Counted from the stretch's first letter, positions 1-60,332 are shown. The stretch: DNA of 64,000 bases from a virus (IMGVR_UViG_3300045988_155182); one strand, 5' to 3'. Translations and numbers: made by a program. Notes: generated from the sequence alone by a model not told the origin.

Positions 1-83
1 TTAAACAACCTCTGTTCGCAATGCCCGGCAACACGCTGGGCATTTTCATATAGACACAATCCCTTCTGATTTACGCATACCCT

Positions 84-149
84 AAAACAATTTGTTTTCT
101 GCCTTTTGTTAATTGAGATAATAAGCCACATAAGAAAACAAATTGTTTC
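84..149 (+). promoter_or_regulatory. Two adjacent copies of the early operator palindrome (aaaacaatttgttttc at 84-99; agaaaacaaattgtttc at 133-149)
   Basis: Inverted repeat AAACAA-N-TTGTTT seen directly; the same motif recurs upstream of at least 10 genes in the window. Confidence 0.5.
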
Positions 150-161
150 GGAGTGGTTGAA

Positions 162-1249: not shown

Positions 1250-2238
1250 TAATGGCGGTCACAATTTGATTCTTTTCTATAAGAATCCGTTGATCGCCAC
1301 TACTCCCCTTCCATACCCGCAATCACATCCTTAAATATCAATAAGTTATAGTTGTTTATACAATCAAGAAAACAACTGAATAACAGATCAACGAAACATC
1401 AACGCTTTCACCCGATTTGGTCTAAAAAATTGACGTTTTCACACATCACTGCTTATACCCGTAATTCTACGCAGCAGACAGCGCCACAGCGTCCAATTTT
1501 CACCACAGACGACCCAACACACTACCAACAAAAACACACGCTCAAAATCGCTCCCGTTGCGTTACACAACCATATAAACAACTTATTTTCAGGCATAACA
1601 AAACAACTAAATAACACACATGCCATTTCCAAAAACAACCAACCTCTTTATGGCAGGCTACCGAAAAGACCCACCTCTTCTCCCCAGGCTACCGGACAAC
1701 CAACCTAACTTTCACAGGCAATCCGAAAACATTCATACGCGCGATACCCACGACACGCCATTACCCAAACAGCGAAGAAACACCAGAATCACTGAACCCC
1801 CAACGAAGCCTGTAACCGCAAGGCTTCTCTCAATCCCAAAAGACACGAAACAGAACAATCACGGGAAACGCCATTACCCAACACACGAATAACTACAAAA
1901 GCCTTTCACACTCCAGACAAACAACTCAAACACAATAACGAAAGCAATCGCCCACCTGCCATTACTCCATACACGGAGAAGAACAATCACCAAAACGACG
2001 AGAACACCCCATAGAAGAACCACCGCAAAACGAACGAAACCACATACACCGACAGAGAGAACAACACACCCAATTCACCAACAGAATTAGTCGCCGTATA
2101 GAACGTTCTGGAAGGAGTGAGTATTAACGTCCATAGAGAGGTTGAGACAGATAAAACACGAATAAAACACAACATGTATAGCGAAGAAGCCAGGTATGTA
2201 TAAGTGGGGAGAGAAGGAGGGGTGTCGCCTCCTTTTTC
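1250..2238 (+). ncRNA. Candidate long non-coding transcript: strongly A+C-rich, G+T-poor tract ending at a rho-independent terminator
   Basis: Plus strand visibly dominated by A and C for about 0.8 kb; ORFs here give low-complexity T/P/Q/H/N peptides with no RBS; possible -35-like TTGATA near 1245 and an operator-like caagaaaacaa near 1365; hairpin plus T-run at 2215-2238. Confidence 0.3.
2215..2238 (+). terminator. Rho-independent terminator (aggagg-loop-cctcct + TTTTT)
   Basis: GC hairpin followed by T-run, seen directly. Confidence 0.55.
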
Positions 2239-2302
2239 GTATTTATTCAACTCCTGATTTTACCCCCCCCGTAACACCCCTACGGTCAGCCTTCGGTCCA
2301 TA

Positions 2303-2437
2303 CAGGGAAAAGGCTGCATCCCGCTACAGAAACGGCTGGGTTGCCTTCGGGGAACGGCTGGAGGTTTTCAGGGAAACGGTCGAGTTGCCTGTGTGGATTT
2401 CGGGAAAAGGCTCGATGCCGGTTCAGGAACGGTGGCG
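2303..2437. repeat. Iteron-like cluster 1: six direct repeats, consensus about cRGGRAAMGGYYG, starting near 2303, 2326, 2348, 2369, 2400, 2424
   Basis: Direct repeats at about 21-23 bp spacing (one 32 bp gap), i.e. roughly two helical turns; seen directly. Confidence 0.55.
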
Positions 2438-2745
2438 TACCGGTATAGCGAGAGGGAGAGTTGCGGCTACCCACCTGTAATGTGCGGGAAGAAGAGAGGC
2501 GCTCACGTGCAGGCGAACTTACTTACCGCTGGATTCCCTCTGAATGCCCAGCTACAGCGTAATTGTGCCAGACAGCCAACGGGTCACAATCGATTTCAGT
2601 AGGTTTTCGGGGAGATGATTATTCTGCCCACCAGCCACCTTCGGCCACTAAATCAGAATAATGTAAAAAGTGTACTCGGTACTGAACCTGAAAACTCACT
2701 GCCAAAACCACATTCACCGGAATAAAATCCTTTTTCGCCTGTGCG

Positions 2746-2786
2746 TTATTGCGATAATAACACCATCAAGAAAACAACATGTTTAA
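2746..2786 (+). promoter_or_regulatory. Conserved early promoter/operator cassette (gcgataat-aACACCatCAAGAAAACAAcaTGTTTA)
   Basis: Near-identical cassettes at about 4890-4923 and 5376-5409; GATAAT-like -10 followed by the operator palindrome. Confidence 0.5.
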
Positions 2787-2796
2787 GGATTGCTTT

Positions 2797-3126
2797 ATGT
2801 TTACAAATATCGACATCAACCAAATCAAGAAATTAACTCAAAAAGAGTTTGATCAGTTTTATGAGTTAGAAGGTTTGTCTTCCACTCTGATCAATTCAAG
2901 ATGGGTGCTGGAGCTGATGACTCGTGATGACGCACCTGCTTTGATGATTTGCGACATGGGTGAAGATGCTGACTTTATGGATATGAGCGAATTTTGTGTG
3001 GACACATACAACCGCAGCCAGAAGTACTACTTCACATGCGATAGCGAGAATGACGTTATTTCTAAGGTCTATCTTCACCTCGTCCAGCATTGGGACGTTC
3101 AGGAGTTTCTTGAAGTATTCGAGTAA
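2797..3126 (+). CDS. Hypothetical small acidic early protein
   Basis: ORF track 2779..3126; ATG at 2797 has AAGGA 7 nt upstream; Asp/Glu-rich. Confidence 0.5.
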   Translation: MFTNIDINQIKKLTQKEFDQFYELEGLSSTLINSRWVLELMTRDDAPALMICDMGEDADFMDMSEFCVDTYNRSQKYYFTCDSENDVISKVYLHLVQHWDVQEFLEVFE

Positions 3127-3251
3127 CCCCAACCAAAGCCAGCATTGCTGGCTTAATTTCTCTATAGCCGCAGGGAAGAACCTGCATATCGCTCATGCAC
3201 CTGATCAATATGCTTTGTAGCCGTTTTCTTACTGGTATTATTTACGCCATT

Positions 3252-3270
3252 GAGAAAACAAGTTGTTTAC
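3252..3270 (+). promoter_or_regulatory. Early operator palindrome (gagaaaacaagttgtttac)
   Basis: Motif family member immediately upstream of the 3280 gene. Confidence 0.45.
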
Positions 3271-3279
3271 GGAGTTGTG

Positions 3280-3591
3280 ATGAAAAAATCATTGGTTCTT
3301 GGTCTGGACAAAGACCAGAAGAGAAAAGAGAAGCCTGCGCTGGTTGCTCAATTAACTTTGCTGGACATCGTTGCCAATGGAACCTCTATTCGTCTGTTCC
3401 GTGAAACAGCGGTGTCTTTCGATAAAAACACCTTTACTCGTTATGTAATGAATGTTCGTCGCCAGCGTGGAAAAGGCTGGATGGCATTTCAAAGAATGTG
3501 GCCGGAACATCAGCTCGAACTGGCTTTGATGGAAGTTAACCGCGTGGCCCAGCAAGAAATTCAGAGAGCATCAGTGATGGCAATAGCCTGA
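3280..3591 (+). CDS. Hypothetical small basic early protein
   Basis: ORF track 3250..3591; internal ATG at 3280 preceded by GGAG. Confidence 0.5.
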   Translation: MKKSLVLGLDKDQKRKEKPALVAQLTLLDIVANGTSIRLFRETAVSFDKNTFTRYVMNVRRQRGKGWMAFQRMWPEHQLELALMEVNRVAQQEIQRASVMAIA

Positions 3592-3625
3592 TAATGTGCA
3601 AGTGGTAATTAGTCGACAGTACGAC

Positions 3626-3654
3626 AGCCCCGCCATCCTTACGGGGCTTTTTTG
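3626..3654 (+). terminator. Rho-independent terminator (agccccg-loop-cggggct + TTTTTT)
   Basis: Seen directly after the 3280..3591 gene. Confidence 0.6.
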
Positions 3655-3658
3655 TATT

Positions 3659-3674
3659 GTAAGTACATACTTAC
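3659..3674. repeat. GTAAGTA-N2-TACTTAC palindrome (first of at least 16 copies)
   Basis: gtaagtacatacttac; family recurs upstream of many genes across the window. Confidence 0.55.
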
Positions 3675-3717
3675 TATCATAGAATATAAAAATAACCAAA
3701 ACACTACGGAGAGTGAA

Positions 3718-4113
3718 ATGACCGTTAAACGCGAAAAACTGACAGTTGATGTTTACTATGCCTCTGAAACCGCCGAAGGTAAGAATGTGGCAAAAATCAC
3801 CGTTGTTACGTACAACACCGAAACTGGTGCCGAAGTCCAGGCCAGTACGATCGTGCGTAAAGGTGATGCCTCCGACGGCGAGTACGCGACTCAATACCAG
3901 TCTATTTTCGATGCAACTGACCCGCTGCTGCTGAAAATCGAGAACTACTTCCGCCAGGTTGATGAAGAGGTGTTTGAAACCATGATGAATATGGTTAACA
4001 CCGTATTCGCCTCCAACCTGAATACCAACACTGCCTGGATTGGTCAGTACGGCCTGCGCATTACCTCTGGCATTCCTGCCGACACCTTAATCCCTGAAAG
4101 CGTATTCGCTTAA
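3718..4113 (+). CDS. Hypothetical protein (132 aa)
   Basis: ORF track 3652..4113; ATG at 3718 preceded by GGAGAG; lies between a terminator and the next terminator. Confidence 0.5.
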   Translation: MTVKREKLTVDVYYASETAEGKNVAKITVVTYNTETGAEVQASTIVRKGDASDGEYATQYQSIFDATDPLLLKIENYFRQVDEEVFETMMNMVNTVFASNLNTNTAWIGQYGLRITSGIPADTLIPESVFA

Positions 4114-4121
4114 TCCTCTTT

Positions 4122-4150
4122 AAATGGCGCGTAAACCGCGCCATTTTATT
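4122..4150 (+). terminator. Rho-independent terminator (atggcgcg-taaac-cgcgccat + TTTT)
   Basis: Seen directly. Confidence 0.6.
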
Positions 4151-4157
4151 AAGCCCG

Positions 4158-4175
4158 ATAACAATTTGTTTTCTG
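4158..4175 (+). promoter_or_regulatory. Early operator palindrome (ataacaatttgttttctg)
   Basis: Motif family member upstream of the 4231 gene. Confidence 0.45.
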
Positions 4176-4230
4176 CCTTATCTGATTTGTGAAAATGATT
4201 TCACTGAAGCAACTTAATAAGGAAACCATC

Positions 4231-4605
4231 ATGGGACTTGATATCTATATCGAGACACAGCCTAAAAACGATCTGAATAACGAGGCATCCAGAAAGCAGG
4301 TTGCTTACTTCCGTAAGTTCAATGCGCTCGTTGGGTGGATGGAGCGCAACGTAGGTGAAGTCGAAAATTGTGAGCTTTTAGAATTAACGATGAATGACAT
4401 TTGTTTTCTGAAGGCTCATTTGATGCACATAAACGAAAGTAATTGCGAAGAGTACTTGCCTACCCGGGAAGGTTTTTTCTTCGGCAGTCAGGAGTACGAT
4501 GAAGGTTACTGGCATGATGTGGGGCAGTTGAAAGAGCTTGTGGAAGATCTGATTAAGAACCACGACTTTCACAATAACAGACTGACCTTCTGCGCCTGGT
4601 GGTAA
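4231..4605 (+). CDS. Hypothetical early protein
   Basis: ORF track 4189..4605; ATG at 4231 has AAGGA 7 nt upstream (the 4189 start is also possible). Confidence 0.45.
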   Translation: MGLDIYIETQPKNDLNNEASRKQVAYFRKFNALVGWMERNVGEVENCELLELTMNDICFLKAHLMHINESNCEEYLPTREGFFFGSQEYDEGYWHDVGQLKELVEDLIKNHDFHNNRLTFCAWW

Positions 4606-4607
4606 AT

Positions 4608-4751
4608 ATGGGCGATTTCAAGAAACGCCTGAAGGAAAGAGCCGAGATGGTCAGAAAGCAAAACGCCTCTTCTGTCATCAGATACGCAAGGCAGTTTAGT
4701 CGCAACAACAAATCAGTTGAGGAAAAGATCCTTAGCGTAATCGGGCGATAA
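4608..4751 (+). CDS. Small basic protein (47 aa), translationally coupled to the upstream gene
   Basis: ATG 3 nt after the upstream stop, open to TAA at 4749-4751; below the ORF-track size cutoff. Confidence 0.3.
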   Translation: MGDFKKRLKERAEMVRKQNASSVIRYARQFSRNNKSVEEKILSVIGR

Positions 4752-4756
4752 TTATT

Positions 4757-4780
4757 AAGGCCACCAGCATTGGTGGTCTT
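4757..4780 (+). terminator. Hairpin aaggccaccagcattggtggtctt (copy 1 of a repeated hairpin element)
   Basis: Near-identical hairpin at 5228-5251; no clear T-run, so it may be a processing or REP-like element rather than a terminator. Confidence 0.4.
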
Positions 4781-4889
4781 AAATGACTTTTAATAACCGA
4801 AGGTTAGTTTGAAACCTGGCTATCAACTTCCAGAACCTTTCTTGTGTATTCAGCCTGTATTAACTTCTTTTATGCCTTATCTACACTGC

Positions 4890-4923
4890 GATAATTACAC
4901 CAACAAGAAAACAACATGTTTAC
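4890..4923 (+). promoter_or_regulatory. Conserved early promoter/operator cassette (copy 2)
   Basis: cgataattacaccaacaagaaaacaacatgtttac. Confidence 0.5.
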
Positions 4924-4940
4924 GCAGTGAGGATATGCTC

Positions 4941-5222
4941 ATGACTGATTTCACCATTACCCCTAAAGCACAAAATGTATTCCTTGAATCATGGCTGGAC
5001 TTGCCGGAAACAGAACAGCAAGAAATGGATCATGTGGATTATGACGAGCAGGTAAGCACGCGATTCTTCCACTTTGAGGGATGCGTTTACGACATTGCCG
5101 ACTTCATGCGAGATGACCGCTTCCCTGAATGGCACGCAAGCTATCCACTAAACGCCTTTGCCATGCTGATGATCCGTGTGGATGATTCAGGGGATACCAT
5201 CGACATCGGTCTGCTCCACTAA
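4941..5222 (+). CDS. Hypothetical small acidic early protein (94 aa)
   Basis: ORF track 4809..5222; ATG at 4941 has GAGGA about 8 nt upstream; the upstream part of the track ORF overlaps the promoter cassette. Confidence 0.5.
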   Translation: MTDFTITPKAQNVFLESWLDLPETEQQEMDHVDYDEQVSTRFFHFEGCVYDIADFMRDDRFPEWHASYPLNAFAMLMIRVDDSGDTIDIGLLH

Positions 5223-5227
5223 AGATT

Positions 5228-5251
5228 AAGGCCACCAATGCTGGTGGCCTT
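5228..5251 (+). terminator. Hairpin aaggccaccaatgctggtggcctt (copy 2)
   Basis: Seen directly. Confidence 0.4.
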
Positions 5252-5375
5252 AAATGACCATCCTGTTTCCCGCAGGCTAAAAACACCAACCTCTTACCTC
5301 CAGGCAACCGACAAACCCACCTGTTCCCGTCCGGCTACCTCAACTTTCCACTTTGACGCCTTATTCATACAACGA

Positions 5376-5409
5376 TAATTAACACCAACAAGAAAACAAT
5401 TTGTTATTT
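5376..5409 (+). promoter_or_regulatory. Conserved early promoter/operator cassette (copy 3)
   Basis: cgataattaacaccaacaagaaaacaatttgttattt. Confidence 0.5.
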
Positions 5410-5426
5410 ACGATAAGGAATTAATC

Positions 5427-5909
5427 ATGAATTTTATCGCTACTGTAAACGCACCCGCACATGGCAATATCGCTGTAACGTTCTCTGACATTGAAAAACG
5501 AGTACTTGGTGCATGGCGCGACAATGAGACGGTAGAACTGTCAGCACAAGAAAAATGCATTATTGCACGCGACATCATTGGCAATCGTCGTTACTCGCGG
5601 GTATTTGAGAAAGCGTATGTGGTAAATTCTGGGTTCGGAACGTTCGTCTTTCCGGTGCGCTCAGGGCGATTCTGCCAGTCCAAGCTGATTGAGTTCGCTA
5701 CGCAGATTTCTGTCTGGATTAAAACTCAATCGTCGTTCAAATTTTCCGACGATGAAGCAGTATCGCAGGGGATGCGGATCGCCAACAATGCGATTAAATG
5801 CAAAAACATTACGTATACCGCTGGCGTTGATACATGGAAACTGTTTTGCGCTAACTTTATGCTGAATGTATACGCAAGCAACCGCATCCACATCCTTGAT
5901 GGCGTGTAA
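5427..5909 (+). CDS. Hypothetical protein (160 aa)
   Basis: ORF track; AAGGA upstream of the ATG. Confidence 0.55.
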   Translation: MNFIATVNAPAHGNIAVTFSDIEKRVLGAWRDNETVELSAQEKCIIARDIIGNRRYSRVFEKAYVVNSGFGTFVFPVRSGRFCQSKLIEFATQISVWIKTQSSFKFSDDEAVSQGMRIANNAIKCKNITYTAGVDTWKLFCANFMLNVYASNRIHILDGV

Positions 5910-5915
5910 CTGAGA

Positions 5916-5939
5916 AGAGGGCCAGAAACGGCCCTTTCT
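5916..5939 (+). terminator. Hairpin gagggcc-agaaac-ggccctttct
   Basis: Seen directly after the 5427..5909 gene. Confidence 0.5.
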
Positions 5940-5958
5940 CTATAGCCACCAGCTGCCG

Positions 5959-6039
5959 CAGGGAAATTTTCAGAAACGGCGAGGAACGCATTCATGAGCC
6001 GACGGGGAACGGCCAGGATTTTTTCGGGAAACGGCTGCA
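5959..6039. repeat. Iteron-like cluster 2 (cagggaaatttt, cagaaacggcgagg, cggggaacggccagg, tcgggaaacggctgc)
   Basis: Same repeat family as cluster 1; last two units about 22 bp apart. Confidence 0.5.
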
Positions 6040-6164
6040 TTCGCCTTTATATAGAAAAAACATCGGGAAGCTGGTGGAATCCAACCAGCGGTTGTCGGAC
6101 AGGTGAGCGGGGAAAATTATGATGACTTTCGTCGCCTGAGACATCCAGATTTCTTTCGTAGCGT

Positions 6165-6208
6165 AATCACATATGTGATTAAGTGGTGTGATTATGTGAA
6201 AAATCACG
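6165..6208. promoter_or_regulatory. Operator-like palindromes (aatcacatatgtgatt; tgtgattatgtgaaaaatcacg)
   Basis: Perfect 14 bp palindrome plus related half-sites in a large intergenic region; seen directly. Confidence 0.4.
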
Positions 6209-6494
6209 CGCACATAATACGCGAGCGGATACGGAACAAAACAAAATGCCGATCCGCGCCGACAATTAAACGCGGATCACATAGCAAGAATAAAAGCCAA
6301 TGATTAACCATACACCATAGCGCAATATAACGCGTTTTAAGCGCGTTAATGTGTTGAGTAATGGGTATGTACTGGTAAGGATATAAAAGCGCGTCTGTGG
6401 CGTTATTTTGGCGCTTATTTTATGTTGTTGGAGTGAGTCAAAGACAATAAAAAAGCGCCATCATTGGCGCGTTATGGTGGAAGTATTAGAAACG

Positions 6495-6529
6495 AAAAAA
6501 GCGCCCATAGTGGGCGCTCGATTTTATTT
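6495..6529. terminator. Bidirectional terminator (gcgcccatagtgggcgc flanked by A-run and T-run)
   Basis: Same 17 bp hairpin repeated at 6772-6788. Confidence 0.55.
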
Positions 6530-6754
6530 ATGTAAACTGATTTCAAATCCCATTTCTACAAACGCTTTTAACATTAAAAATATATCAGCGTCATTCACGT
6601 CTGCTTTTTTTCGCTCCTGGTCGCTCAATAAGTCAATTTTGCGCGTCGTTTCATCGATAAACTCGACTGCGCGCCCAGCGTAACCAGCGATCCCAGCGAT
6701 GCGATTAACAAAATATTCATTGCGCACGTTAACGCCAGCGATAAGAATAAACAT
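6524..6754 (-). CDS. Small hypothetical protein (76 aa) bracketed by two copies of one terminator hairpin
   Basis: ORF track; AAGGAG 7 nt upstream of the ATG on the minus strand. Confidence 0.35.
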   Translation of the reverse strand: MFILIAGVNVRNEYFVNRIAGIAGYAGRAVEFIDETTRKIDLLSDQERKKADVNDADIFLMLKAFVEMGFEISLHK

Positions 6755-6765
6755 GATTAAGCTCC

Positions 6766-6790
6766 TTAAAAGCGCCCATAGTGGGCGCCA
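6766..6790 (-). terminator. Terminator for the 6802..7452 gene (gcgcccatagtgggcgc + T-run on minus strand)
   Basis: Seen directly. Confidence 0.5.
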
Positions 6791-6801
6791 GATTCCATTA
6801 A

Positions 6802-7452
6802 TTACGCTTTGAAAGCATCAGCCAGATAGTTATAGAAATCATTTTTAATAAAGCGATATTGCTGCGTACCAGCTTTTGCGCTTCCCATTCCTTTGACTTT
6901 CTCAACAAGTCCAAGACGTTCGCAAAGATTGATAAGCTGGTTGGCTTGAGTGTATCCTGCGTCTAATTTTATTTCGTTGGCTTTTTTCGCTTCATTCATT
7001 AAATCGAAAACAGCGCCATTTGTGAACGTCTCGATCTCGTCGTTAATCATATCGATTAATGCGAATACACGAGATCCGGACATATCAGCGACGGAATAAA
7101 CACACTTTCCAGCTTTAATGGATTTAACCAGATAAACCAGTTTTTCCAGAGAATAACTGTTAGTCATTGCATCACGGAAAAAAACTTCTGGCGCTTGTTT
7201 GCTTGCTTTGATCGCATAGTAGAAAACAGAGCATAATTTTTCGTCTTCTACAGCGTTTACAACGTTGTTGATGAAGTAAGCAAGTTTAGTGGTCGCAGCT
7301 TGCATATTTGCTTTGTCTGCTTTAGTGTGCGTACCATTTTTATAATGTTCGTTATATGTTTGAGTTGCCAGATCTGCTTTTTCGCGCAGTTCATCGGATA
7401 CAATGGAAGCAGCTTCAATGATGGATTTTTTAGAAATGATAATGTTAGCCAT
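6802..7452 (-). CDS. Hypothetical protein (216 aa), AT-rich, own transcription unit
   Basis: ORF track; AT-rich upstream region 7453-7735 and terminators on both sides. Confidence 0.55.
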   Translation of the reverse strand: MANIIISKKSIIEAASIVSDELREKADLATQTYNEHYKNGTHTKADKANMQAATTKLAYFINNVVNAVEDEKLCSVFYYAIKASKQAPEVFFRDAMTNSYSLEKLVYLVKSIKAGKCVYSVADMSGSRVFALIDMINDEIETFTNGAVFDLMNEAKKANEIKLDAGYTQANQLINLCERLGLVEKVKGMGSAKAGTQQYRFIKNDFYNYLADAFKA

Positions 7453-8047: not shown

Positions 8048-8572
8048 TCAAAAAGGCAAAATTCGTTCAACCCAATCGAACAAAACAACTATTTTTCTAC
8101 CGTTCTCGACACGTAGTGTAACCTGACAAGCATCTGCGCCTGCTGACACCCCCTCAATTTCACGGCCATCCGCCATGTACACCCTTATAGATTTGTTTGC
8201 TTTGTAGGCTTGGTTGCAAATTGCAAAAAAATCGCGGCGTGATGGCCGATTATCGACATAATCAGGGTGAACTGTTAGTCGACCTTTGAAATCGTGAGCG
8301 ATACTGTCAAACACACCTGATTCAATGGTACTAATGCGTTCAAGTGGGAGCCTTATACGATTTTCTTTGTCAAAAGGGGCTGGGCAAAGGTCAACTTTGT
8401 TACGAGATGGCATGAGGCCATAAACGTACATGCAAAACGCCTGACCATCTTCGAGAGTGACCCTTACAGGAATTTGTTCTCTGCGCCAGAACATCAGTAG
8501 TTTTTCAACGTTAGTGTAATCTCGCGGCCAGAGTTCAGCTTGGATACCGTAGGTAATATCTTTGGTTGTCAT
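8048..8572 (-). CDS. Hypothetical protein
   Basis: ORF track 8048..8608; internal Met gives start/stop coupling with the upstream lipoprotein gene. Confidence 0.45.
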   Translation of the reverse strand: MTTKDITYGIQAELWPRDYTNVEKLLMFWRREQIPVRVTLEDGQAFCMYVYGLMPSRNKVDLCPAPFDKENRIRLPLERISTIESGVFDSIAHDFKGRLTVHPDYVDNRPSRRDFFAICNQAYKANKSIRVYMADGREIEGVSAGADACQVTLRVENGRKIVVLFDWVERILPF

Positions 8573-8576
8573 GTCA

Positions 8577-9041
8577 TCACAGAGTTGTTGGCAGAATGTC
8601 GATGTCACCAGAATTGCTGGTGAACACCCTGAATGCTTTTGTGTCTCTATTCTTCAGAGTCGTTTCTCGCTCTTGACGAGCGGGGTTTAGAGCACATAAA
8701 CCTGCACCTTCAAGAGATGCACCCACAATTAATTCTCCGGCATTTAAATGGAAAGTCGCTTTTTCGCCTGTAGCCAGTTTTGCGACAGTTTCGCCGTTGA
8801 TGAAAATGGAAGCATCACATCCAGCTCCTACAAAACCTGTGTCTCTCATTACCACCAACGTAGCTGGCGCTGCGCTTTGATACTTGAACACTTTGGCCTG
8901 CGGTGCTGGTTTGGCGTCATGGATTGATATTGGGCGTGATTGGCACGCGGTAAGCATCAACACTGGTAACGTTAGTAGAGGGAGAAGCGAGTATTTCATG
9001 ATAGTTTTAGAACAGAAAGTGAACAGTATGGGAGACTTCAT
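8577..9041 (-). CDS. Putative lipoprotein (lipobox LTAC); candidate superinfection-exclusion protein
   Basis: ORF track; hydrophobic segment followed by L-T-A-C; start ambiguous (9041 has GGGAGA RBS; Met at 8999 gives a shorter, more typical signal peptide). Confidence 0.5.
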   Translation of the reverse strand: MKSPILFTFCSKTIMKYSLLPLLTLPVLMLTACQSRPISIHDAKPAPQAKVFKYQSAAPATLVVMRDTGFVGAGCDASIFINGETVAKLATGEKATFHLNAGELIVGASLEGAGLCALNPARQERETTLKNRDTKAFRVFTSNSGDIDILPTTL

Positions 9042-10972: not shown

Positions 10973-11671
10973 GTGGATTGTAGCAATAAAATGGATGTAA
11001 AAATCACGATTTTGCAGGTTGATGTTGCCAACCTTCGCCCGAATACCTGGAACACCAATTCGGTTGGTGCGCAGAATTTTGAAAAACTGAAAGGTTCTAT
11101 CGAAAAATTGGGCTTTTTTAAGCCAATTTTGGCTCGTGAACTTGAAGATGGATTTTTTGAAATCCTCGGCGGCGAACATCGCTGGCGTGCTGCTATTGAG
11201 CAAGGAATTTCAACGGTTCCGGTGCTTTCTGTGGGCAAAATTAGCGATGTCGTAGCTAAACAGATGTCACTGGTGGACAACGAGCGATACGGTGAAGACG
11301 ATCAAATCGCATTGCAACGCTTCATTGAAGAAATTCAGTCAGAACTTGACTATCAACTGTCTGAAATCGCCCCGTATGACGACGAAATCTCGATGGTTTT
11401 AGCAAAAGAGGCGGCAATCGACCTTGAAGCACTGGAGGCATTGTCTCGTGGTAGTGATGAGCCTGTCGATACCGACAAACGAGAGAAAACCGAACGTGTG
11501 GGTGCGGAACATCAGACCATGCGCTTCAAAGTAACCTTCGATGCGTCAGATCGTGTTGCAGAAACCATAAAAAACATCATCAAAGAGCAGGCTATTAACA
11601 CCGGTAATGAAATGGAGAACGCTGGTGAGGCTCTGGTGTGGCTGGTCGACTACTACAAGGAGCGTATGTAA
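10973..11671 (+). CDS. ParB/Srx N-terminal-domain protein 1
   Basis: GGEHRWRAA matches the ParB GxxRxxA box. Confidence 0.7.
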   Translation: MDCSNKMDVKITILQVDVANLRPNTWNTNSVGAQNFEKLKGSIEKLGFFKPILARELEDGFFEILGGEHRWRAAIEQGISTVPVLSVGKISDVVAKQMSLVDNERYGEDDQIALQRFIEEIQSELDYQLSEIAPYDDEISMVLAKEAAIDLEALEALSRGSDEPVDTDKREKTERVGAEHQTMRFKVTFDASDRVAETIKNIIKEQAINTGNEMENAGEALVWLVDYYKERM

Positions 11672-12339
11672 TGACCAAAAAGTTTGAAATCGTATATCGC
11701 GACCCGGCAGATCTTATTCCCTATGAGATGAATGCCAAAAAGCATGATGAACAGCAGATCCGAGATCTGGCCGCAGCCATTAAAAAGCGCGGATTTGACC
11801 AGCCAATTACGGTCGATAAGAACGACGTAATTATTACTGGCCACGGCCGCCGTGAGGCTGCAATTTTTGCTGGACTTGAGCGCGTACCGGTTATTGTTCG
11901 CGATGATCTCAGTGATGACGAGGTTCGTGCGAAGCGCCTTGAAGATAACCGACTTGCCAGCATTGATTACGATGCAATTAAGCTACAGAAAGAGCTTGAG
12001 TCGCTTGTTCTGGACGATATCGAGGTTTTCGGCTTTGAAGAGCGGGAGTTGAATGTTCTCGTTGGCAGCATGACAGAAGAAATGGACACCGACTCGCTAG
12101 TTATCGATCTGGGCGAAGAAACTAAACGACAGAAGGATGAACACACCGAGATCAGTCGTGAAGTTGCAGCGGAAGAAGTACGTGTTGTCGACGTATTGGG
12201 CTTTAAAACGCTCCCTGCTGGCTCTGCCATTGTTGTTGGTGATTTGCTTGCCCATATGGAAGAAATGACGGGAGAAAGCGGGGTAGACGCATTTGTGGCA
12301 TATGCGGAGAAGATCTCTTCCGGGGAGATGGCTGCATGA
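11671..12339 (+). CDS. ParB/Srx N-terminal-domain protein 2
   Basis: TGHGRREAA box; ATG overlaps the upstream stop (TAATG); ORF track 11638..12339. Confidence 0.7.
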   Translation: MTKKFEIVYRDPADLIPYEMNAKKHDEQQIRDLAAAIKKRGFDQPITVDKNDVIITGHGRREAAIFAGLERVPVIVRDDLSDDEVRAKRLEDNRLASIDYDAIKLQKELESLVLDDIEVFGFEERELNVLVGSMTEEMDTDSLVIDLGEETKRQKDEHTEISREVAAEEVRVVDVLGFKTLPAGSAIVVGDLLAHMEEMTGESGVDAFVAYAEKISSGEMAA

Positions 12340-14278: not shown

Positions 14279-14322
14279 AGAAAACAAGTTGGTTAGCAGA
14301 TGCAGTAAACAAGTTGTTTTAG
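14279..14322 (+). promoter_or_regulatory. Double early operator (agaaaacaagttggtt ... taaacaagttgttttag)
   Basis: Motif family member upstream of the terminase small subunit gene. Confidence 0.45.
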
Positions 14323-45319: not shown

Positions 45320-45337
45320 AAGAAAACAAGTTGTTTC
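45320..45337 (+). promoter_or_regulatory. Early operator palindrome (agaaaacaagttgtttc) upstream of parA
   Basis: Motif family member. Confidence 0.45.
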
Positions 45338-45371
45338 AGACGATAATTATATACGCAAAGGGAACTCTCCA

Positions 45372-46040
45372 ATGACCAAGATCTTTGTGGTTGGCGGCAC
45401 AAAGGGCGGGCCTGGCAAATCCACCGTTGCCCAGCAAATTGCCGTTTGCCTGAAAGTCAAAAAGAAGAAGAAGGTTTATATTACCGATATAGATATTCAG
45501 CGCACGACAACGAGCTGGTGTGAAGACCGTCGACAGAACGAAGACCTTGAGCTGATTCCTTTTGCATACGTTCAGGATGACATCATTAAGCACCTAAAAT
45601 CGCTTCAGGGTAGAGCTGAGTTTGTAGTGGTAGATGCTGGTGGCTTCGACTCCGAAATTCAGCGACAAGCGATGCTGATGGCCGACGTTATCATTATCCC
45701 GCTTCGTCCTAAGCGTCGTGATTTGAAATCTCTGCGTGATATCGATCCTATTATCGACAATGTTCGTAATGTAAACGATAAAGTGAAGGTCCGCGCGGTC
45801 ATGAACCAGTGTCCGGCTTTGCCATCACAAGTGTCTCGCATTCTGGCGGCTAAAGAGATTGTTGAGACGTTTGGCATCGAGTCTGCGCCAGTCAATCTAT
45901 ATAACCGCAACGTCTATGATGATGCGGAAGAGTCTGGTCGTTCTATCTTTGAAATGACCGGTAGCGAGCGCGACAAAAAGGCGGAAGCCGAGTTTGAAGA
46001 ATTTGTAGATTATCTGTTGAGTCTGGAGGAAAAAGAATAA
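45372..46040 (+). CDS. parA: ParA partition ATPase (deviant Walker A)
   Basis: VVGGTKGGPGKST deviant Walker A typical of ParA/MinD/Soj. Confidence 0.8.
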   Translation: MTKIFVVGGTKGGPGKSTVAQQIAVCLKVKKKKKVYITDIDIQRTTTSWCEDRRQNEDLELIPFAYVQDDIIKHLKSLQGRAEFVVVDAGGFDSEIQRQAMLMADVIIIPLRPKRRDLKSLRDIDPIIDNVRNVNDKVKVRAVMNQCPALPSQVSRILAAKEIVETFGIESAPVNLYNRNVYDDAEESGRSIFEMTGSERDKKAEAEFEEFVDYLLSLEEKE

Positions 46041-46399
46041 TGTCCATGAAAATGGGTGACCTAGCAAAGCGCAAAGAGCCTGATGCACCGGCTAAGAACA
46101 CAACTCCTTTGCGCCAACCAGTCAGACCACAGGGACGCCCGACTCGTGGCAAAGAGAAAATTAAAAGCCGCACAATGTCACTGGAGGACGAATACTTCGA
46201 ACTGCTGGAGATGATGAAGTTCATCCCTCGCTTCGAGAAGTTCACTCGTTCTGACGTGATTCGTGCTGCTATTTTCCATCTTGCGGAGAAGACACCGCAG
46301 GAAATCGAGGACATCGTGAAACTTAACGAGGCGATCACCGCTGCCGATGTCACGATGCGTACCGATGAAATCAAACGCGAGTTGATGAAGAAAGGTTAA
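46040..46399 (+). CDS. Small partition partner, ParG/RHH-type centromere-binding protein (putative)
   Basis: ATGA overlap with parA; basic N-terminus and RHH-like C-terminus. Confidence 0.5.
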   Translation: MSMKMGDLAKRKEPDAPAKNTTPLRQPVRPQGRPTRGKEKIKSRTMSLEDEYFELLEMMKFIPRFEKFTRSDVIRAAIFHLAEKTPQEIEDIVKLNEAITAADVTMRTDEIKRELMKKG

Positions 46400-48588: not shown

Positions 48589-48599
48589 TGGTGAGCCAC

Positions 48600-49340
48600 A
48601 TGAGCCAAATCTTTTTTGATACCATTGACAACGACCAGTACGACTTCATGACAGAGTGGAATACCGCTGTTATGGACAAGTGGGTCGCTGAAAACATTGG
48701 TTTGTCGCGCTGCAAAGACGAGGCTGAACTCTTCGAGACGAAGTGGTTTGATTACCGCGATATGCATCCTCTCATGGCCACCTGTCTGTTTACGGAGGCG
48801 TACAAACGTCAGTACTCAAATATCATGCTGACGCACGGTCGCGAACACTTTGAAACAGCTCCGTTCACCACCGGGTTAAAACGCCTGCCTTATCAGGAGT
48901 TGTCGACTGCCAATAAAACGTCGCTATGGAAAGCACGCCAGTTTGCTGATCGCTATTGCTGTTCATACGACTACTTTATCTCCACGGTTCTTTCCGCAGC
49001 TGCACGGCGTCTGTGGGACAAGTTGCCGCGCCCACAGCATTTATGGCAGCCAGAACTGATTGAGATATTCGAAGAGAAATTATCCAGACGCGCAACAACC
49101 CGTCTGGATGACTCTCTGGTTAGCTTTAAGCATATGGGAGACATGCAGTTCAACCCGATTCAGGAAAGCTATTTTGAGTGGATTCTGGAGCGTTTGCGCA
49201 CCATCCCTCGCAGCAAGCGCATACGCGCAATTTTCTCCGCTATCTGGCTAATGGAAATCGTTCCAGAGCGCCTTATTTCCGCCCACTTTCCAGAAGAACT
49301 GGAAGAAGCACGGCGGTTTATTGATCCCCTATCTAATTAA
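48600..49340 (+). CDS. Hypothetical protein (about 246 aa) at the head of the replication module
   Basis: ORF track 48591..49340. Confidence 0.5.
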   Translation: MSQIFFDTIDNDQYDFMTEWNTAVMDKWVAENIGLSRCKDEAELFETKWFDYRDMHPLMATCLFTEAYKRQYSNIMLTHGREHFETAPFTTGLKRLPYQELSTANKTSLWKARQFADRYCCSYDYFISTVLSAAARRLWDKLPRPQHLWQPELIEIFEEKLSRRATTRLDDSLVSFKHMGDMQFNPIQESYFEWILERLRTIPRSKRIRAIFSAIWLMEIVPERLISAHFPEELEEARRFIDPLSN

Positions 49341-49348
49341 CTAATACT

Positions 49349-49365
49349 AGAAAACAATTTGTTTA
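49349..49365 (+). promoter_or_regulatory. Early operator palindrome (agaaaacaatttgttta)
   Basis: Motif family member upstream of the helicase gene. Confidence 0.45.
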
Positions 49366-49383
49366 AAAAACAAAGGAAAGCAC

Positions 49384-60251: not shown

Positions 60252-60317
60252 CCCCTCTTCTCCCTGCGCGAATGGCTTAGTTCCCTGTTCGCGCAGTGCT
60301 ACATTAAACACACTAGT

Positions 60318-60332
60318 AAATAATTTGTTTTC
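60318..60332 (+). promoter_or_regulatory. Operator half-site variant (aaataatttgttttc)
   Basis: Motif family member upstream of the vWA gene. Confidence 0.35.

What the first reader, a model, noticed from the sequence alone, without database searches (positions are those of the whole stretch)
2303..6039. Two iteron-like clusters bracket the early gene array
Cluster 1 (2303-2437) has six direct repeats of about cRGGRAAMGGYYG at roughly 22 bp spacing, and cluster 2 (5959-6039) has four related repeats. Regular two-turn spacing is typical of plasmid or phage origin iterons and of centromere sites. The window has a ParA/ParG-type cassette but no obvious Rep initiator, so which protein binds these is open.
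Basis: seen in the sequence. Interest (0 to 1): 0.5.

Follow-up and report, generated by a model that had tools for sequence, protein, structure and literature searches.

The report
Conserved phased protein-binding repeats, not origin
Two clusters of a short repeated DNA motif flanking a block of small early genes are real and conserved across a large family of phage-plasmids; they are not the plasmid's replication origin and most likely serve as docking sites for a DNA-binding protein, perhaps the plasmid's partition machinery.

Summary
The repeats are real. A GRAAMGG core (consensus tTTCrGGGAAACGGCTGG) occurs six times at 2303-2436, spaced 22/22/22/31/22 bp, and three to four times at 5959-6037. 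All copies are on the + strand, and the best site elsewhere in the 64 kb scores far lower. The window is an SSU5-type phage-plasmid, 98% identical to E. coli phage Cyrano/pLF82. Both clusters keep their position, orientation and core motif in every lineage examined, from E. coli, Salmonella and Klebsiella to Moellerella, Xenorhabdus and Morganella.

They are not Rep iterons. The family's RepA and a canonical oriR lie outside the window. That oriR has unrelated iterons, a DnaA box, GATC repeats and an AT-rich stretch. A lineage with a different Rep has different Rep iterons but unchanged GGGAAACGG arrays. I found no support for a coding region or a structured RNA, and neither array has an origin-style unwinding region beside it. 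Each array lies just downstream of a terminator-like hairpin.

Best reading (about 0.35): transcription-shielded DNA sites where a conserved backbone protein assembles. The likeliest role is a remote, split centromere for the otherwise centromere-less ParF-like ParA plus a predicted RHH partner. Rivals are a lytic-phase origin or enhancer, and a regulatory or insulator array. The binding protein remains unidentified.

The parts
2303..2436 (+). Array 1: six direct units of consensus c(A/G)GGGAAA(C/A)GGCTGG, spaced 22/22/22/31/22 bp
   Evidence: conserved unit by unit in relatives
5959..6037 (+). Array 2: one half-degenerate unit (5959-5969) and three strong units (core G at 5973, 6006, 6028), spaced 10/33/22 bp
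   Evidence: conserved in all relatives, including Y. pestis pMT1
2211..2237 (+). Intrinsic-terminator-like hairpin with a T run, about 65 bp upstream of array 1
   Evidence: conserved
2238..2302 (+). Conserved leader between the terminator and array 1 (ATTCAA..CCCCCGTAAC..CCCCTnCGGTCAGCCTTCGG), largely invariant across Enterobacteriaceae lineages
   Evidence: recognisable in Xenorhabdus and in IMG/VR locus L108
5919..5941 (+). GC hairpin GGGCC-AGAAAC-GGCCC followed by TTTCTCT, terminator-like, directly after the last array gene and upstream of array 2
   Evidence: read; conserved; not listed by the consensus scan
1390..2100 (+). About 700-bp non-coding tract that is extremely A+C-rich (A 39%, C 33%, G 13%, T 15%), always immediately upstream of the terminator and array 1. 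Possibly a Rho-loading (rut-like) shield; function unknown
   Evidence: present in Moellerella and Xenorhabdus relatives; no CDS called by PGAP
2797..5909 (+). Bracketed array of seven small genes of unknown function. Gene content varies between lineages
   Evidence: variable content
45372..46040 (+). ParF-like (type Ib) ParA ATPase with no repeat array next to its operon. Candidate partner system for the arrays
   Evidence: ParF 4dzz E 1e-10; NF041546 E 2e-33, below its cut-off; no adjacent repeats
46040..46399 (+). 119-aa predicted ribbon-helix-helix partner (ParG-like by position). The segment IKSRT(M/V)S(L/M/I)EDE is invariant among lineages that are 31-50% identical overall. Candidate binder
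   Evidence: sub-threshold match to aCcr1 family, which I recall to be RHH; no PDB sequence match
6802..7452 (-). 216-aa family-specific protein encoded next to array 2 in every lineage. Its C-terminal segment GYTQxNQxxKLxxxxG is invariant and looks HTH-like. Alternative candidate binder
   Evidence: no Pfam, PDB or NCBIfam match; single-sequence model unusable
10973..12339 (+). Two ParB_N-domain proteins (overlapping genes 10973-11671 and 11638-12339). Further candidate binders

Best explanation
The two arrays are DNA-level, cis-acting assembly sites. A conserved, backbone-encoded sequence-specific protein binds the GGGAAACGG units cooperatively, in one orientation and on one face of the helix, building a nucleoprotein complex at each end of the variable early-gene block. 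Each array is shielded from incoming transcription by a terminator-like hairpin; array 1 also has a long C-rich, G-poor untranslated tract upstream. The most likely role is a remote, split centromere for the element's ParF-like ParA and its predicted RHH partner. The protein-coated arrays would stimulate and follow ParA on the nucleoid so that the roughly five plasmid-prophage copies per cell (qPCR estimate for Cyrano in LF82) are distributed at division. Shown here: the arrays, their phasing, their deep conservation, their independence from Rep, and the absence of any centromere next to parA. Inferred: that a protein binds them, which protein it is, and the partition function.
For: (1) The arrays are real, strand-specific and phased at 10/22/31/33 bp, close to whole helical turns.
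(2) They show a phylogenetic footprint. Cores are kept, spacers vary, and indels are whole units or keep phase: a 22-bp loss in PhiR41_1 and 31 bp reduced to 22 bp in Klebsiella.
(3) Both arrays are present in all SSU5-type lineages examined, out to Moellerella, Xenorhabdus and Morganella and to a relative whose helicase is 51% identical. Cluster 1 matched 708 PLSDB plasmids. In IMG/VR the motif pair is essentially confined to this family.
(4) A scan of essentially the whole related 108-kb plasmid finds only two kinds of non-coding repeat array: the RepA iterons and these.
(5) The ParF-like ParA operon has no repeat array in its promoter or flanks in E. coli, SSU5, K. ozaenae, Morganella or Moellerella lineages, so its centromere must lie elsewhere.
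(6) The predicted DNA-reading strand of the RHH partner is invariant in lineages only 31-50% identical overall, matching the invariance of the DNA motif.
(7) The arrays stay the same when Rep and its iterons are swapped.
(8) Terminator-like hairpins lie directly upstream of both arrays, and the region is close to background expression in the LF82 lysogen. This fits a complex that has to be kept free of transcription.
Against: Type Ib centromeres are normally next to the par operon and double as its operator. Here the arrays are about 43 kb away, and no GGGAAACGG site lies at the parA promoter in any lineage. Units are not homogenised: orthologous units are 73% identical between E. coli and SSU5, against 52% for units within an array. 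That pattern suggests graded, position-specific sites, as in regulatory regions. Spacing departs from 22 bp in distant relatives (25, 34 and 44-48 bp). pMT1 has lost ParA, the RHH partner and array 1 but keeps array 2 intact; the loss may be too recent to be informative. The invariant association with the variable early-gene block and the A+C-rich tract has no obvious partition rationale. The RHH assignment is a sequence-pattern inference with no significant HMM or structure match. Other conserved candidates also have invariant putative DNA-reading segments.
Confidence: 0.35

Rival explanations
1. Phage-mode (lytic) replication origin plus a distant enhancer, organised like P4 ori/crr or SPP1 oriL/oriR. 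An early phage protein, for example the neighbouring 216-aa protein or the 249-aa protein upstream of the DnaB-like helicase, would bind both arrays, loop the 3.6 kb between them and recruit the phage helicase and primase.
For: The arrays consist of iteron-like direct repeats with two-turn spacing. There are two clusters about 3.1-3.8 kb apart in every lineage that keeps both. The element encodes its own DnaB-like helicase, primase, DnaE, ligase, RNase H and UvsW-like helicase, yet no lytic origin is known. A family-specific protein with an invariant HTH-like segment is always encoded beside array 2. In the Moellerella relative, array 2 is followed by an AT-rich stretch with four TTATTTAAGAAT repeats.
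Against: In the window and in most lineages there is no AT-rich unwinding element, DnaA box or GATC cluster near either array. The lowest GC in any 60 bp is 0.37, against 0.20 at the true oriR. The 249-aa protein models confidently as an all-helical fold with no PDB neighbour, so nothing marks it as an initiator. The AT-rich repeats seen in Moellerella are not conserved in other lineages.
Confidence: 0.15
2. Transcription-control arrays. A phage regulator coats the arrays to insulate, loop or silence the variable early-gene block, or to activate weak rightward promoters at the right edge of each array.
For: The arrays sit at the entry and exit of the early block in every lineage, always co-oriented with its transcription and just after terminator-like hairpins. 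Unit-specific sequence is conserved, suggesting graded affinities. Two ParB_N proteins lie 5 kb away; from general knowledge, some members of that family silence genes by spreading from a loading site. Conservation of both blocks stops at a TATAG/TATGTAG element, after which the sequence is lineage-specific.
Against: Array 2 lies in a convergent intergenic region with no annotated + strand gene downstream. The candidate -10 elements lack the conserved final T and vary between lineages (TATAGC, TACAGA, TTCAGA). The consensus scan finds no promoter there. Each gene of the block already has its own promoter-like repeat with a different, palindromic motif.
Confidence: 0.2
3. Extra binding sites for the plasmid initiator RepA, acting in copy-number control by handcuffing, like P1 incA.
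For: Direct repeats with about 22-bp spacing resemble Rep iterons in form.
Against: The RepA iterons of the same plasmid type are ATCCACTATAGAGAG-like at 21-bp spacing and unrelated in sequence. The K. ozaenae lineage has another Rep with TATGCTGTCAGCGGT iterons but identical GGGAAACGG arrays. The arrays are about 33 kb from repA.
Confidence: 0.02
4. RNA-level element: the repeats are motifs in a transcript that titrates an RNA-binding protein, in the manner of CsrB, or they form a structured non-coding RNA.
For: All units are on the transcribed-sense strand. An FljA-family protein is encoded 2 kb away, with a weak Hfq/Sm-like match at its C-terminus and what looks by eye like a second Sm-like half.
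Against: No Rfam match. No conserved structure: the consensus energy is -9 kcal/mol over 296 columns, with an unfavourable covariation term. The single-sequence fold is no better than shuffles, z = 0.26. Spacing in whole helical turns and unit-sized indels point to a DNA-level constraint. GGA is not the invariant part of the motif. Expression over array 1 in the lysogen is near background.
Confidence: 0.03
5. Coding sequence: the repeats lie within CYRAN_104, the ORF over 2198-2602 in the Cyrano annotation.
For: An ORF is annotated over array 1 in phage Cyrano, and the window has ORFs at 2196-2480 and 2393-2602.
Against: The ORF is broken in the window itself. NCBI's PGAP pipeline calls nothing between 1241 and 2797 in the related plasmid. 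Relatives differ by 22-bp and 9-bp indels and by unaligned insertions.
Confidence: 0.01

Closest known systems
Centromeres of type Ib/II plasmid partition systems bound by RHH proteins (TP228 parH-ParG, pB171 parC1/parC2, R1 parC with its 5+5 iterons); comparison from general knowledge
   Same: Arrays of short direct repeats, sometimes split into two clusters, that are coated cooperatively by a small dimeric DNA-binding protein. A small ParF-like Walker ATPase with a small downstream partner is present on the same replicon.
   Different: Known centromeres of this type lie in or beside the par operon and act as its operator. Here the arrays are about 43 kb away and the parA promoter has no copy. 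The unit is about 15 conserved bp per 22 bp, rather than contiguous 4-11-bp boxes. Units are individually conserved rather than homogenised.
Dispersed centromere sites of the linear phage-plasmid N15 (SopAB with four scattered sites); from general knowledge
   Same: It is a phage-plasmid whose partition sites are remote from the par operon and sit among phage genes.
   Different: The N15 sites are single inverted repeats bound by a ParB-type SopB, not phased direct-repeat arrays. The system is type Ia, not ParF-like.
Rep iterons of P1 oriR/incA and RepFIB
   Same: Direct repeats at about two-turn spacing in two clusters.
   Different: The family's real RepA iterons are elsewhere and unrelated in sequence. 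They co-vary with the Rep type, whereas these arrays do not. The arrays lack a DnaA box, GATC cluster and AT-rich stretch.
Satellite phage P4 ori and crr (two iteron clusters 4.5 kb apart, both bound by the alpha protein); from general knowledge
   Same: Two co-oriented clusters of the same short motif a few kb apart, with genes between them.
   Different: No primase-helicase with an iteron-binding domain was identified here, and no AT-rich segment lies adjacent.

Membership tests
Rep-type origin iterons (P1/RepFIB-like oriR) | Tandem direct repeats of about 17-22 bp, phased at about two helical turns | tested here: met
   Spacing 22/22/22/31/22 and 10/33/22 bp
Rep-type origin iterons (P1/RepFIB-like oriR) | Linked initiator gene whose iterons share the repeat sequence | tested here: not met
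   repA is about 33 kb away, outside the window. Its flanking iterons are ATCCACTATAGAGAG-like
Rep-type origin iterons (P1/RepFIB-like oriR) | Repeat sequence co-varies with the Rep type | tested here: not met
   The K. ozaenae plasmid has another Rep and TATGCTGTCAGCGGT iterons, but the same GGGAAACGG arrays
Rep-type origin iterons (P1/RepFIB-like oriR) | Adjacent AT-rich unwinding element, DnaA boxes and Dam sites | tested here: not met
   No DnaA box and no GATC; minimum GC in 60 bp is 0.37. oriR has 10 GATC, 1 DnaA box and a minimum GC of 0.20
Type Ib partition centromere (ParF/ParG-like) | Array(s) of short repeats able to bind many copies of the centromere-binding protein | tested here: met
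   Six plus four units in two clusters
Type Ib partition centromere (ParF/ParG-like) | Small deviant-Walker ParA with a small partner gene downstream on the same replicon | tested here: met
   ParF 4dzz E 1e-10; NF041546 E 2e-33, below its curated cut-off. The 119-aa partner is called RHH from its sequence pattern only
Type Ib partition centromere (ParF/ParG-like) | Centromere located in or beside the par operon and overlapping its promoter | tested here: not met
   No repeats and no motif copy in the parA upstream regions of five lineages. The arrays are about 43 kb away
Type Ib partition centromere (ParF/ParG-like) | Bound by the partner protein; stabilises a plasmid in cis; exerts incompatibility | not testable with these tools
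   Needs EMSA or ChIP, plus stability and incompatibility assays
ParB-parS (type Ia or chromosomal) | Palindromic parS of about 16 bp | tested here: not met
   The units are asymmetric and all in one orientation
Phage lytic origin with iterons (lambda, P4, SPP1 type) | Iterons inside or beside the initiator gene, with an adjacent AT-rich region | tested here: inconclusive
   A conserved 216-aa protein of unknown fold is encoded beside array 2. No AT-rich region is present except in the Moellerella relative
Structured or protein-sponge non-coding RNA (CsrB-like) | Conserved secondary structure, or GGA motifs presented in loops | tested here: not met

The most novel reading that the evidence does not exclude
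The arrays may be one component of a larger, ancient non-coding module: a roughly 700-bp A+C-rich untranslated tract, a terminator, a conserved leader, array 1, a variable early or anti-defence gene block, a second terminator and array 2. Together these could form a protein-bridged, transcription-insulated DNA loop. Such a loop might couple plasmid partition or lytic replication to control of the early-gene cassette. That would be a cis architecture not described for any phage-plasmid, and its binder could be a family-specific protein of unknown fold, such as the 216-aa neighbour.
Probability: 0.15. Interest if true: 0.7.

Novelty: new variant of a known kind. Interest (0 to 1): 0.45.

Why it matters
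SSU5-type phage-plasmids (pHCM2, pLF82/Cyrano, pKpn and pSLy3 types, and pMT1 of Y. pestis) are common in clinical Enterobacterales. Related DNA was found on a plasmid in 251 of 5,426 complete E. coli genomes, and the cluster 1 region matched 708 PLSDB plasmids. Papers in the library report that these elements can carry resistance genes. I found no paper describing their partition site or lytic origin. Apart from the Rep iterons, these arrays are the only conserved non-coding repeat arrays in the element. That makes them the obvious place to look for the centromere or the lytic origin. If they are the centromere, they would define the partition-incompatibility determinant of a whole supergroup. 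They would also be an unusual example of a type Ib centromere placed far from its operon.

Tried and rejected
- **Rfam scan of 1500-7000:** only sub-threshold noise.
- **RNA folding of array 1:** neither the consensus fold nor the single-sequence fold showed structure.
- **Literature:** searches for SSU5 or pHCM2 origin, iterons, centromere or partition found nothing on these repeats. One promising repA paper concerns a different phage-plasmid family regulated by CopA/CopT.
- **Array and flanking proteins:** Pfam, PHROGs and NCBIfam gave only unknown-function families.
- **The 249-aa protein upstream of DnaB:** the AF2 model is good (pLDDT 87), but there is no PDB fold match and no repeats in or beside its gene. 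It gives no link to the arrays.
- **The 216-aa neighbour:** the single-sequence model is unusable (pLDDT 52). An exhaustive HMMER search finds only 24 relatives. A profile search against PDB sequences and a Pfam scan gave nothing significant.
- **RHH profile against PDB sequences:** nothing significant.
- **Centromere beside parA:** none found in five lineages.
- **par module outside SSU5-type elements:** the only candidate was an IS-flanked remnant.
- **Sigma-70 promoters at the right edge of the arrays:** not predicted and not conserved.
- **G-quadruplex idea (by eye):** G-runs with short loops occur only in the Morganella and Xenorhabdus versions, not in the window.
- **IMG/VR pattern scan:** the non-SSU5 matches were coding repeats or microsatellites, so the arrays are specific to this family.
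- **F plasmid RepFIB sequence for comparison:** the record is not in the collection.

Full report
**1. The observation**

Reading the sequence confirms six + strand units at 2303-2436. They are CAGGGAAAAGGCTGC, TACAGAAACGGCTGG, TCGGGGAACGGCTGG, CAGGGAAACGGTCGA, TCGGGAAAAGGCTCG and TTCAGGAACGGTGGC, spaced 22, 22, 22, 31 and 22 bp. At 5959-6037 there is one half-degenerate unit (CAGGGAAATTT) and three strong units, with core G at 5973, 6006 and 6028, spaced 10, 33 and 22 bp.

The core GRAAMGGY is not enriched in the window overall, with 17 matches against 17.6 expected. Ten of the 17 lie in these two short stretches, all on the + strand. Six same-strand cores within 130 bp compares with a maximum of three in 300 simulated sequences. 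A weight matrix built from the nine strong sites scores them 18.9-26.8. Nothing elsewhere in the 64 kb exceeds 14.4. All spacings are close to whole numbers of helical turns.

**2. What the window is**

The region is 98% identical to Escherichia phage Cyrano (pLF82) and related to Salmonella phage SSU5 and to Klebsiella phage-plasmids. Related DNA sits on a plasmid in 251 of 5,426 complete E. coli genomes, one record per genome. The window corresponds to positions 77132 down to 13133 of plasmid NZ_CP061531.

**3. Conservation**

- Both arrays align at 71-78% identity with SSU5 and Klebsiella relatives.
- The GGGAAACGG cores are conserved while spacers diverge.
- SSU5 keeps the same 22/22/22/31/22 spacing pattern.
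- Indels are unit-sized or keep phase. PhiR41_1 lacks exactly 22 bp, and Klebsiella turns the 31-bp step into 22 bp.
- Cluster 1 finds 708 PLSDB plasmids of about 100-120 kb from Klebsiella, Escherichia, Enterobacter, Salmonella, Citrobacter, Cronobacter and Shigella.
- I located distant relatives through the neighbouring UvsW-like helicase. Both arrays, about 3.1-3.8 kb apart and in the same orientation relative to flanking genes, are present in a K. michiganensis/ozaenae-type lineage, in Moellerella and in Xenorhabdus.
- The Morganella locus covered only array 2, which is present there.
- A relative with a helicase only 51% identical carries GGGAAAGGCT units at 44-48 bp spacing.
Fifty-eight carry SSU5 marker genes, with the match always between the 160-aa and 216-aa genes. 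One more (L108) is an SSU5-type array 1 with four perfect GGGAAACGG at 22 bp. The rest are unrelated coding repeats or microsatellites.

The arrays are therefore an ancient signature specific to this family.

**4. What they are not**

- **Not the plasmid origin.** The related plasmid encodes a RepA at record positions 1-1056, outside the window. It is flanked by 21-bp iterons (ATCCACTATAGAGAG-like), a DnaA box, GATC-rich repeats and an AT-rich stretch. This looks like a P1/RepFIB-type oriR/incA layout (my comparison from general knowledge). pMT1 has the same arrangement of repA.
- **Not tied to Rep.** A K. ozaenae plasmid carries a different Rep at the same locus, with TATGCTGTCAGCGGT iterons. 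Its GGGAAACGG arrays are unchanged.
- **No origin features nearby.** The arrays have no GATC, no DnaA box and no AT-rich segment within 150 bp.
- **Not coding.** The ORF annotated in Cyrano (CYRAN_104) is broken in the window, is ignored by PGAP, and is disrupted by 22-bp and 9-bp indels in relatives.
- **Not a structured RNA.** There is no Rfam hit. The consensus fold is -9 kcal/mol with an unfavourable covariation term. The single-sequence fold has z = 0.26 against shuffles. Microarray or RNA-seq values for CYRAN_103 and CYRAN_104 in the LF82 lysogen are near background (PMC9928086 supplement).

**5. Anatomy of the locus**

- Array 1 follows an intrinsic-terminator-like hairpin (2211-2237) and a conserved 65-bp leader.
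- Upstream of that lies a roughly 700-bp non-coding tract of extreme A+C content: A 39%, C 33%, G 13%, T 15%. It peaks at 0.744 A+C, about 6.9 SD above the window mean.
- The tract's composition and position are conserved in all the Enterobacteriaceae lineages measured and in Moellerella and Xenorhabdus. In the most distant relative it is replaced by a purine-rich tract.
- Array 2 follows a GC hairpin with a T-rich run (5919-5941) directly after the last gene of the block. It lies in a convergent intergenic region: + strand genes end at 5909 and minus-strand genes end at 6524.
- Between the arrays are seven small genes of unknown function. Promoter-like repeats and terminator-like hairpins recur between them. 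Gene content varies between lineages; in distant relatives the equivalent block holds toxin-antitoxin genes, and nearby genes include Tad2-like and Acb2/Tad1-like ones.
- Orthologous units are more alike between E. coli and SSU5 (73%) than units within one array (52%). There has been no concerted evolution, and each unit keeps its own identity.

**6. Candidate binders**

A repeat scan of essentially the whole plasmid finds only two classes of non-coding array: the Rep iterons and these. The candidates are:

- **The ParA partner.** The element has one partition ATPase. It is a ParF-like type Ib ParA (PDB 4dzz, E 1e-10), followed by a 119-aa protein. I read this protein as ribbon-helix-helix from its pattern: a basic tail, a strand IKSRTMSLEDE, then two helices. 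It has a sub-threshold match to the aCcr1 family, which I recall to be RHH. There is no significant PDB sequence match. No repeats flank this operon in five lineages. The putative strand IKSRT(M/V)S(L/M/I)EDE is invariant among proteins only 31-50% identical, which parallels the invariant DNA motif.
- **The 216-aa protein.** It is always encoded beside array 2 and has an invariant HTH-like GYTQxNQxxKLxxxxG segment. It has no recognisable family or fold.
- **Two ParB_N proteins**, 5 kb away.
- **Not informative.** The 249-aa protein upstream of the DnaB-like helicase models confidently (pLDDT 87) but matches no solved fold.

**7. Mechanism**

I commit to DNA-level nucleoprotein assembly sites that are shielded from transcription. 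Their most likely role is a remote, split centromere for the ParF-like ParA and its partner (confidence about 0.35).

- *Shown:* the arrays, their phasing, conservation and independence from Rep; the absence of a centromere next to parA; the upstream terminator-like hairpins.
- *Inferred:* protein binding, the identity of the binder, and partition. I also infer that the C-rich, G-poor untranslated tract could act as a Rho-loading shield; this rests on the general knowledge that rut sites are C-rich, G-poor and unstructured.
- *Against:* the distance from the operon; no operator copy at the parA promoter; the non-homogenised units; variable spacing in distant relatives; retention of array 2 in pMT1, which has lost ParA, the RHH partner, array 1, the A+C tract and the phage helicase/primase block and uses P1-type ParAB.

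Rivals, with my confidence in each:

- lytic-phase origin or enhancer, P4 ori/crr-like: 0.15;
- regulatory or insulator arrays for the early block: 0.2;
- RepA handcuffing sites: 0.02;
- RNA-level element: 0.03;
- coding sequence: 0.01.

The remaining probability is for functions I could not frame, such as packaging, recombination or binding of a host factor.

**8. Comparison with known systems**

In form the arrays resemble Rep iterons, but they fail three of the four defining tests for that family. They resemble RHH-bound centromeres such as parH, parC and parC1/parC2 in being split arrays of direct repeats on a replicon with a ParF-like ATPase. They fail the location criterion for that family. 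N15 gives a precedent for remote, dispersed centromeres in a phage-plasmid, but those are single inverted repeats bound by a ParB-type protein. P4 ori/crr gives a precedent for two iteron clusters a few kb apart.

**9. Verdict**

This is a real, deeply conserved and apparently undescribed cis element of a clinically widespread phage-plasmid family. It is certainly not the plasmid origin. It is most likely a variant of a known kind, namely a protein-coated repeat array or centromere. Interest is moderate at 0.45. Its function is testable with simple experiments, and it would fill a gap in SSU5-type biology, but nothing yet shows a new principle.

Noticed in passing
window 1390-2100 (+): A roughly 700-bp non-coding tract of extreme A+C content (A 39%, C 33%, G 13%, T 15%; up to 0.744 A+C, about 6.9 SD above the window mean). 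It contains internal degenerate repeats (GCCATTACCCAA..., CCATAGA...). Its position upstream of array 1 and its composition are conserved out to Moellerella and Xenorhabdus. PGAP calls no CDS there, and expression in the LF82 lysogen is near background. It might be a giant Rho-loading site or an unstructured RNA made in lytic growth; its function is unknown.
   Followed up: partly
window 83-150, 2770-2784, 3254-3270, 4157-4173, 4907-4923, 5392-5408, 14280-14321, 45322-45338, 49350-49366, 60316-60332: A near-palindromic motif GAAAACAAnnTGTTT gives 26 matches against 4 expected, often on both strands of one site. It lies next to a CGATAAT-type -10 in front of each early-block gene, and also in front of the terminase small-subunit, parA and DnaB-like helicase genes. 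It is probably a family-specific operator or promoter element scattered around the genome. It is absent from the parA promoter of the Morganella and Moellerella relatives.
   Followed up: partly
window 8048-8608 (-): The protein annotated 'transcriptional regulator' belongs to the FljA family (PF03614, E 4e-84). FljA is the Salmonella phase-1 flagellin repressor, which I recall binds fliC mRNA. Its C-terminal part gives a weak Hfq match (E 8e-4), and by eye the protein looks like two Sm-like halves. It is therefore probably an RNA-binding protein. It is conserved beside the arrays in all lineages, including pMT1.
   Followed up: partly
outside the window: NZ_CP061531 record 107,600-108,197 and 1-1,540 (L009 18460-19198, L023 1-1600); CP027615 42654-44448 (L031): The plasmid-mode replicon: repA with two upstream iteron sets, a DnaA box, GATC-rich repeats and an AT-rich stretch, plus a downstream iteron set. 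In the K. ozaenae-type lineage the same locus holds a different Rep with different iterons, which looks like a replicon swap at a fixed position.
   Followed up: yes
window 48591-49340 (+): A 249-aa protein (phrog_2500) immediately upstream of the DnaB-like helicase. With a 27-sequence alignment the AF2 model is confident (pLDDT 87, pTM 0.85) and all-helical, but it has no PDB fold neighbour (best E 0.9). It may be a new fold, perhaps a helicase loader or initiator.
   Followed up: partly
window 1633-1694 and 5252-5310 (+): A 31-nt A+C-rich repeat (AAACAACCAACCTC...CAGGCTACCG) occurs twice in the A+C-rich tract and twice more just upstream of the promoter of the last early-block gene. GC skew dips there as well.
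   Followed up: no
window 6165-6225 (+): A perfect 16-bp palindrome AATCACATATGTGATT is followed by further TGTGATTA / CACATAAT repeats in the convergent intergenic region downstream of array 2. This stretch is lineage-specific. Moellerella has four TTATTTAAGAAT repeats at the equivalent place, and Morganella and Xenorhabdus each have their own repeats.
   Followed up: no
L027, L028, L034, L035 (distant relatives): In distant relatives, the block bracketed by the arrays carries toxin-antitoxin genes (HigB, MqsA/RelE in L026, L027). Anti-defence-type genes (Tad2-like, Acb2/Tad1-like) lie elsewhere near the helicase. This suggests the helicase neighbourhood is a hotspot for accessory and counter-defence cargo.
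   Followed up: no
window 2196-2602 (+): The ORF annotated as CYRAN_104 in phage Cyrano, and the similar calls in PhiR41_1 and SSU5 (SSU5_109), overlie array 1. They are very likely spurious gene calls.
   Followed up: yes
whole element (E. coli genome collection): DNA related to the window's first 12 kb was found in 251 records from 251 of 5,426 complete E. coli genomes. All 279 matching places are on plasmids, and no genome has two matching records. My rough expectation from the 4.6% prevalence, assuming independence, is about 11 double carriers. The absence is compatible with immunity, exclusion or incompatibility.
   Followed up: no
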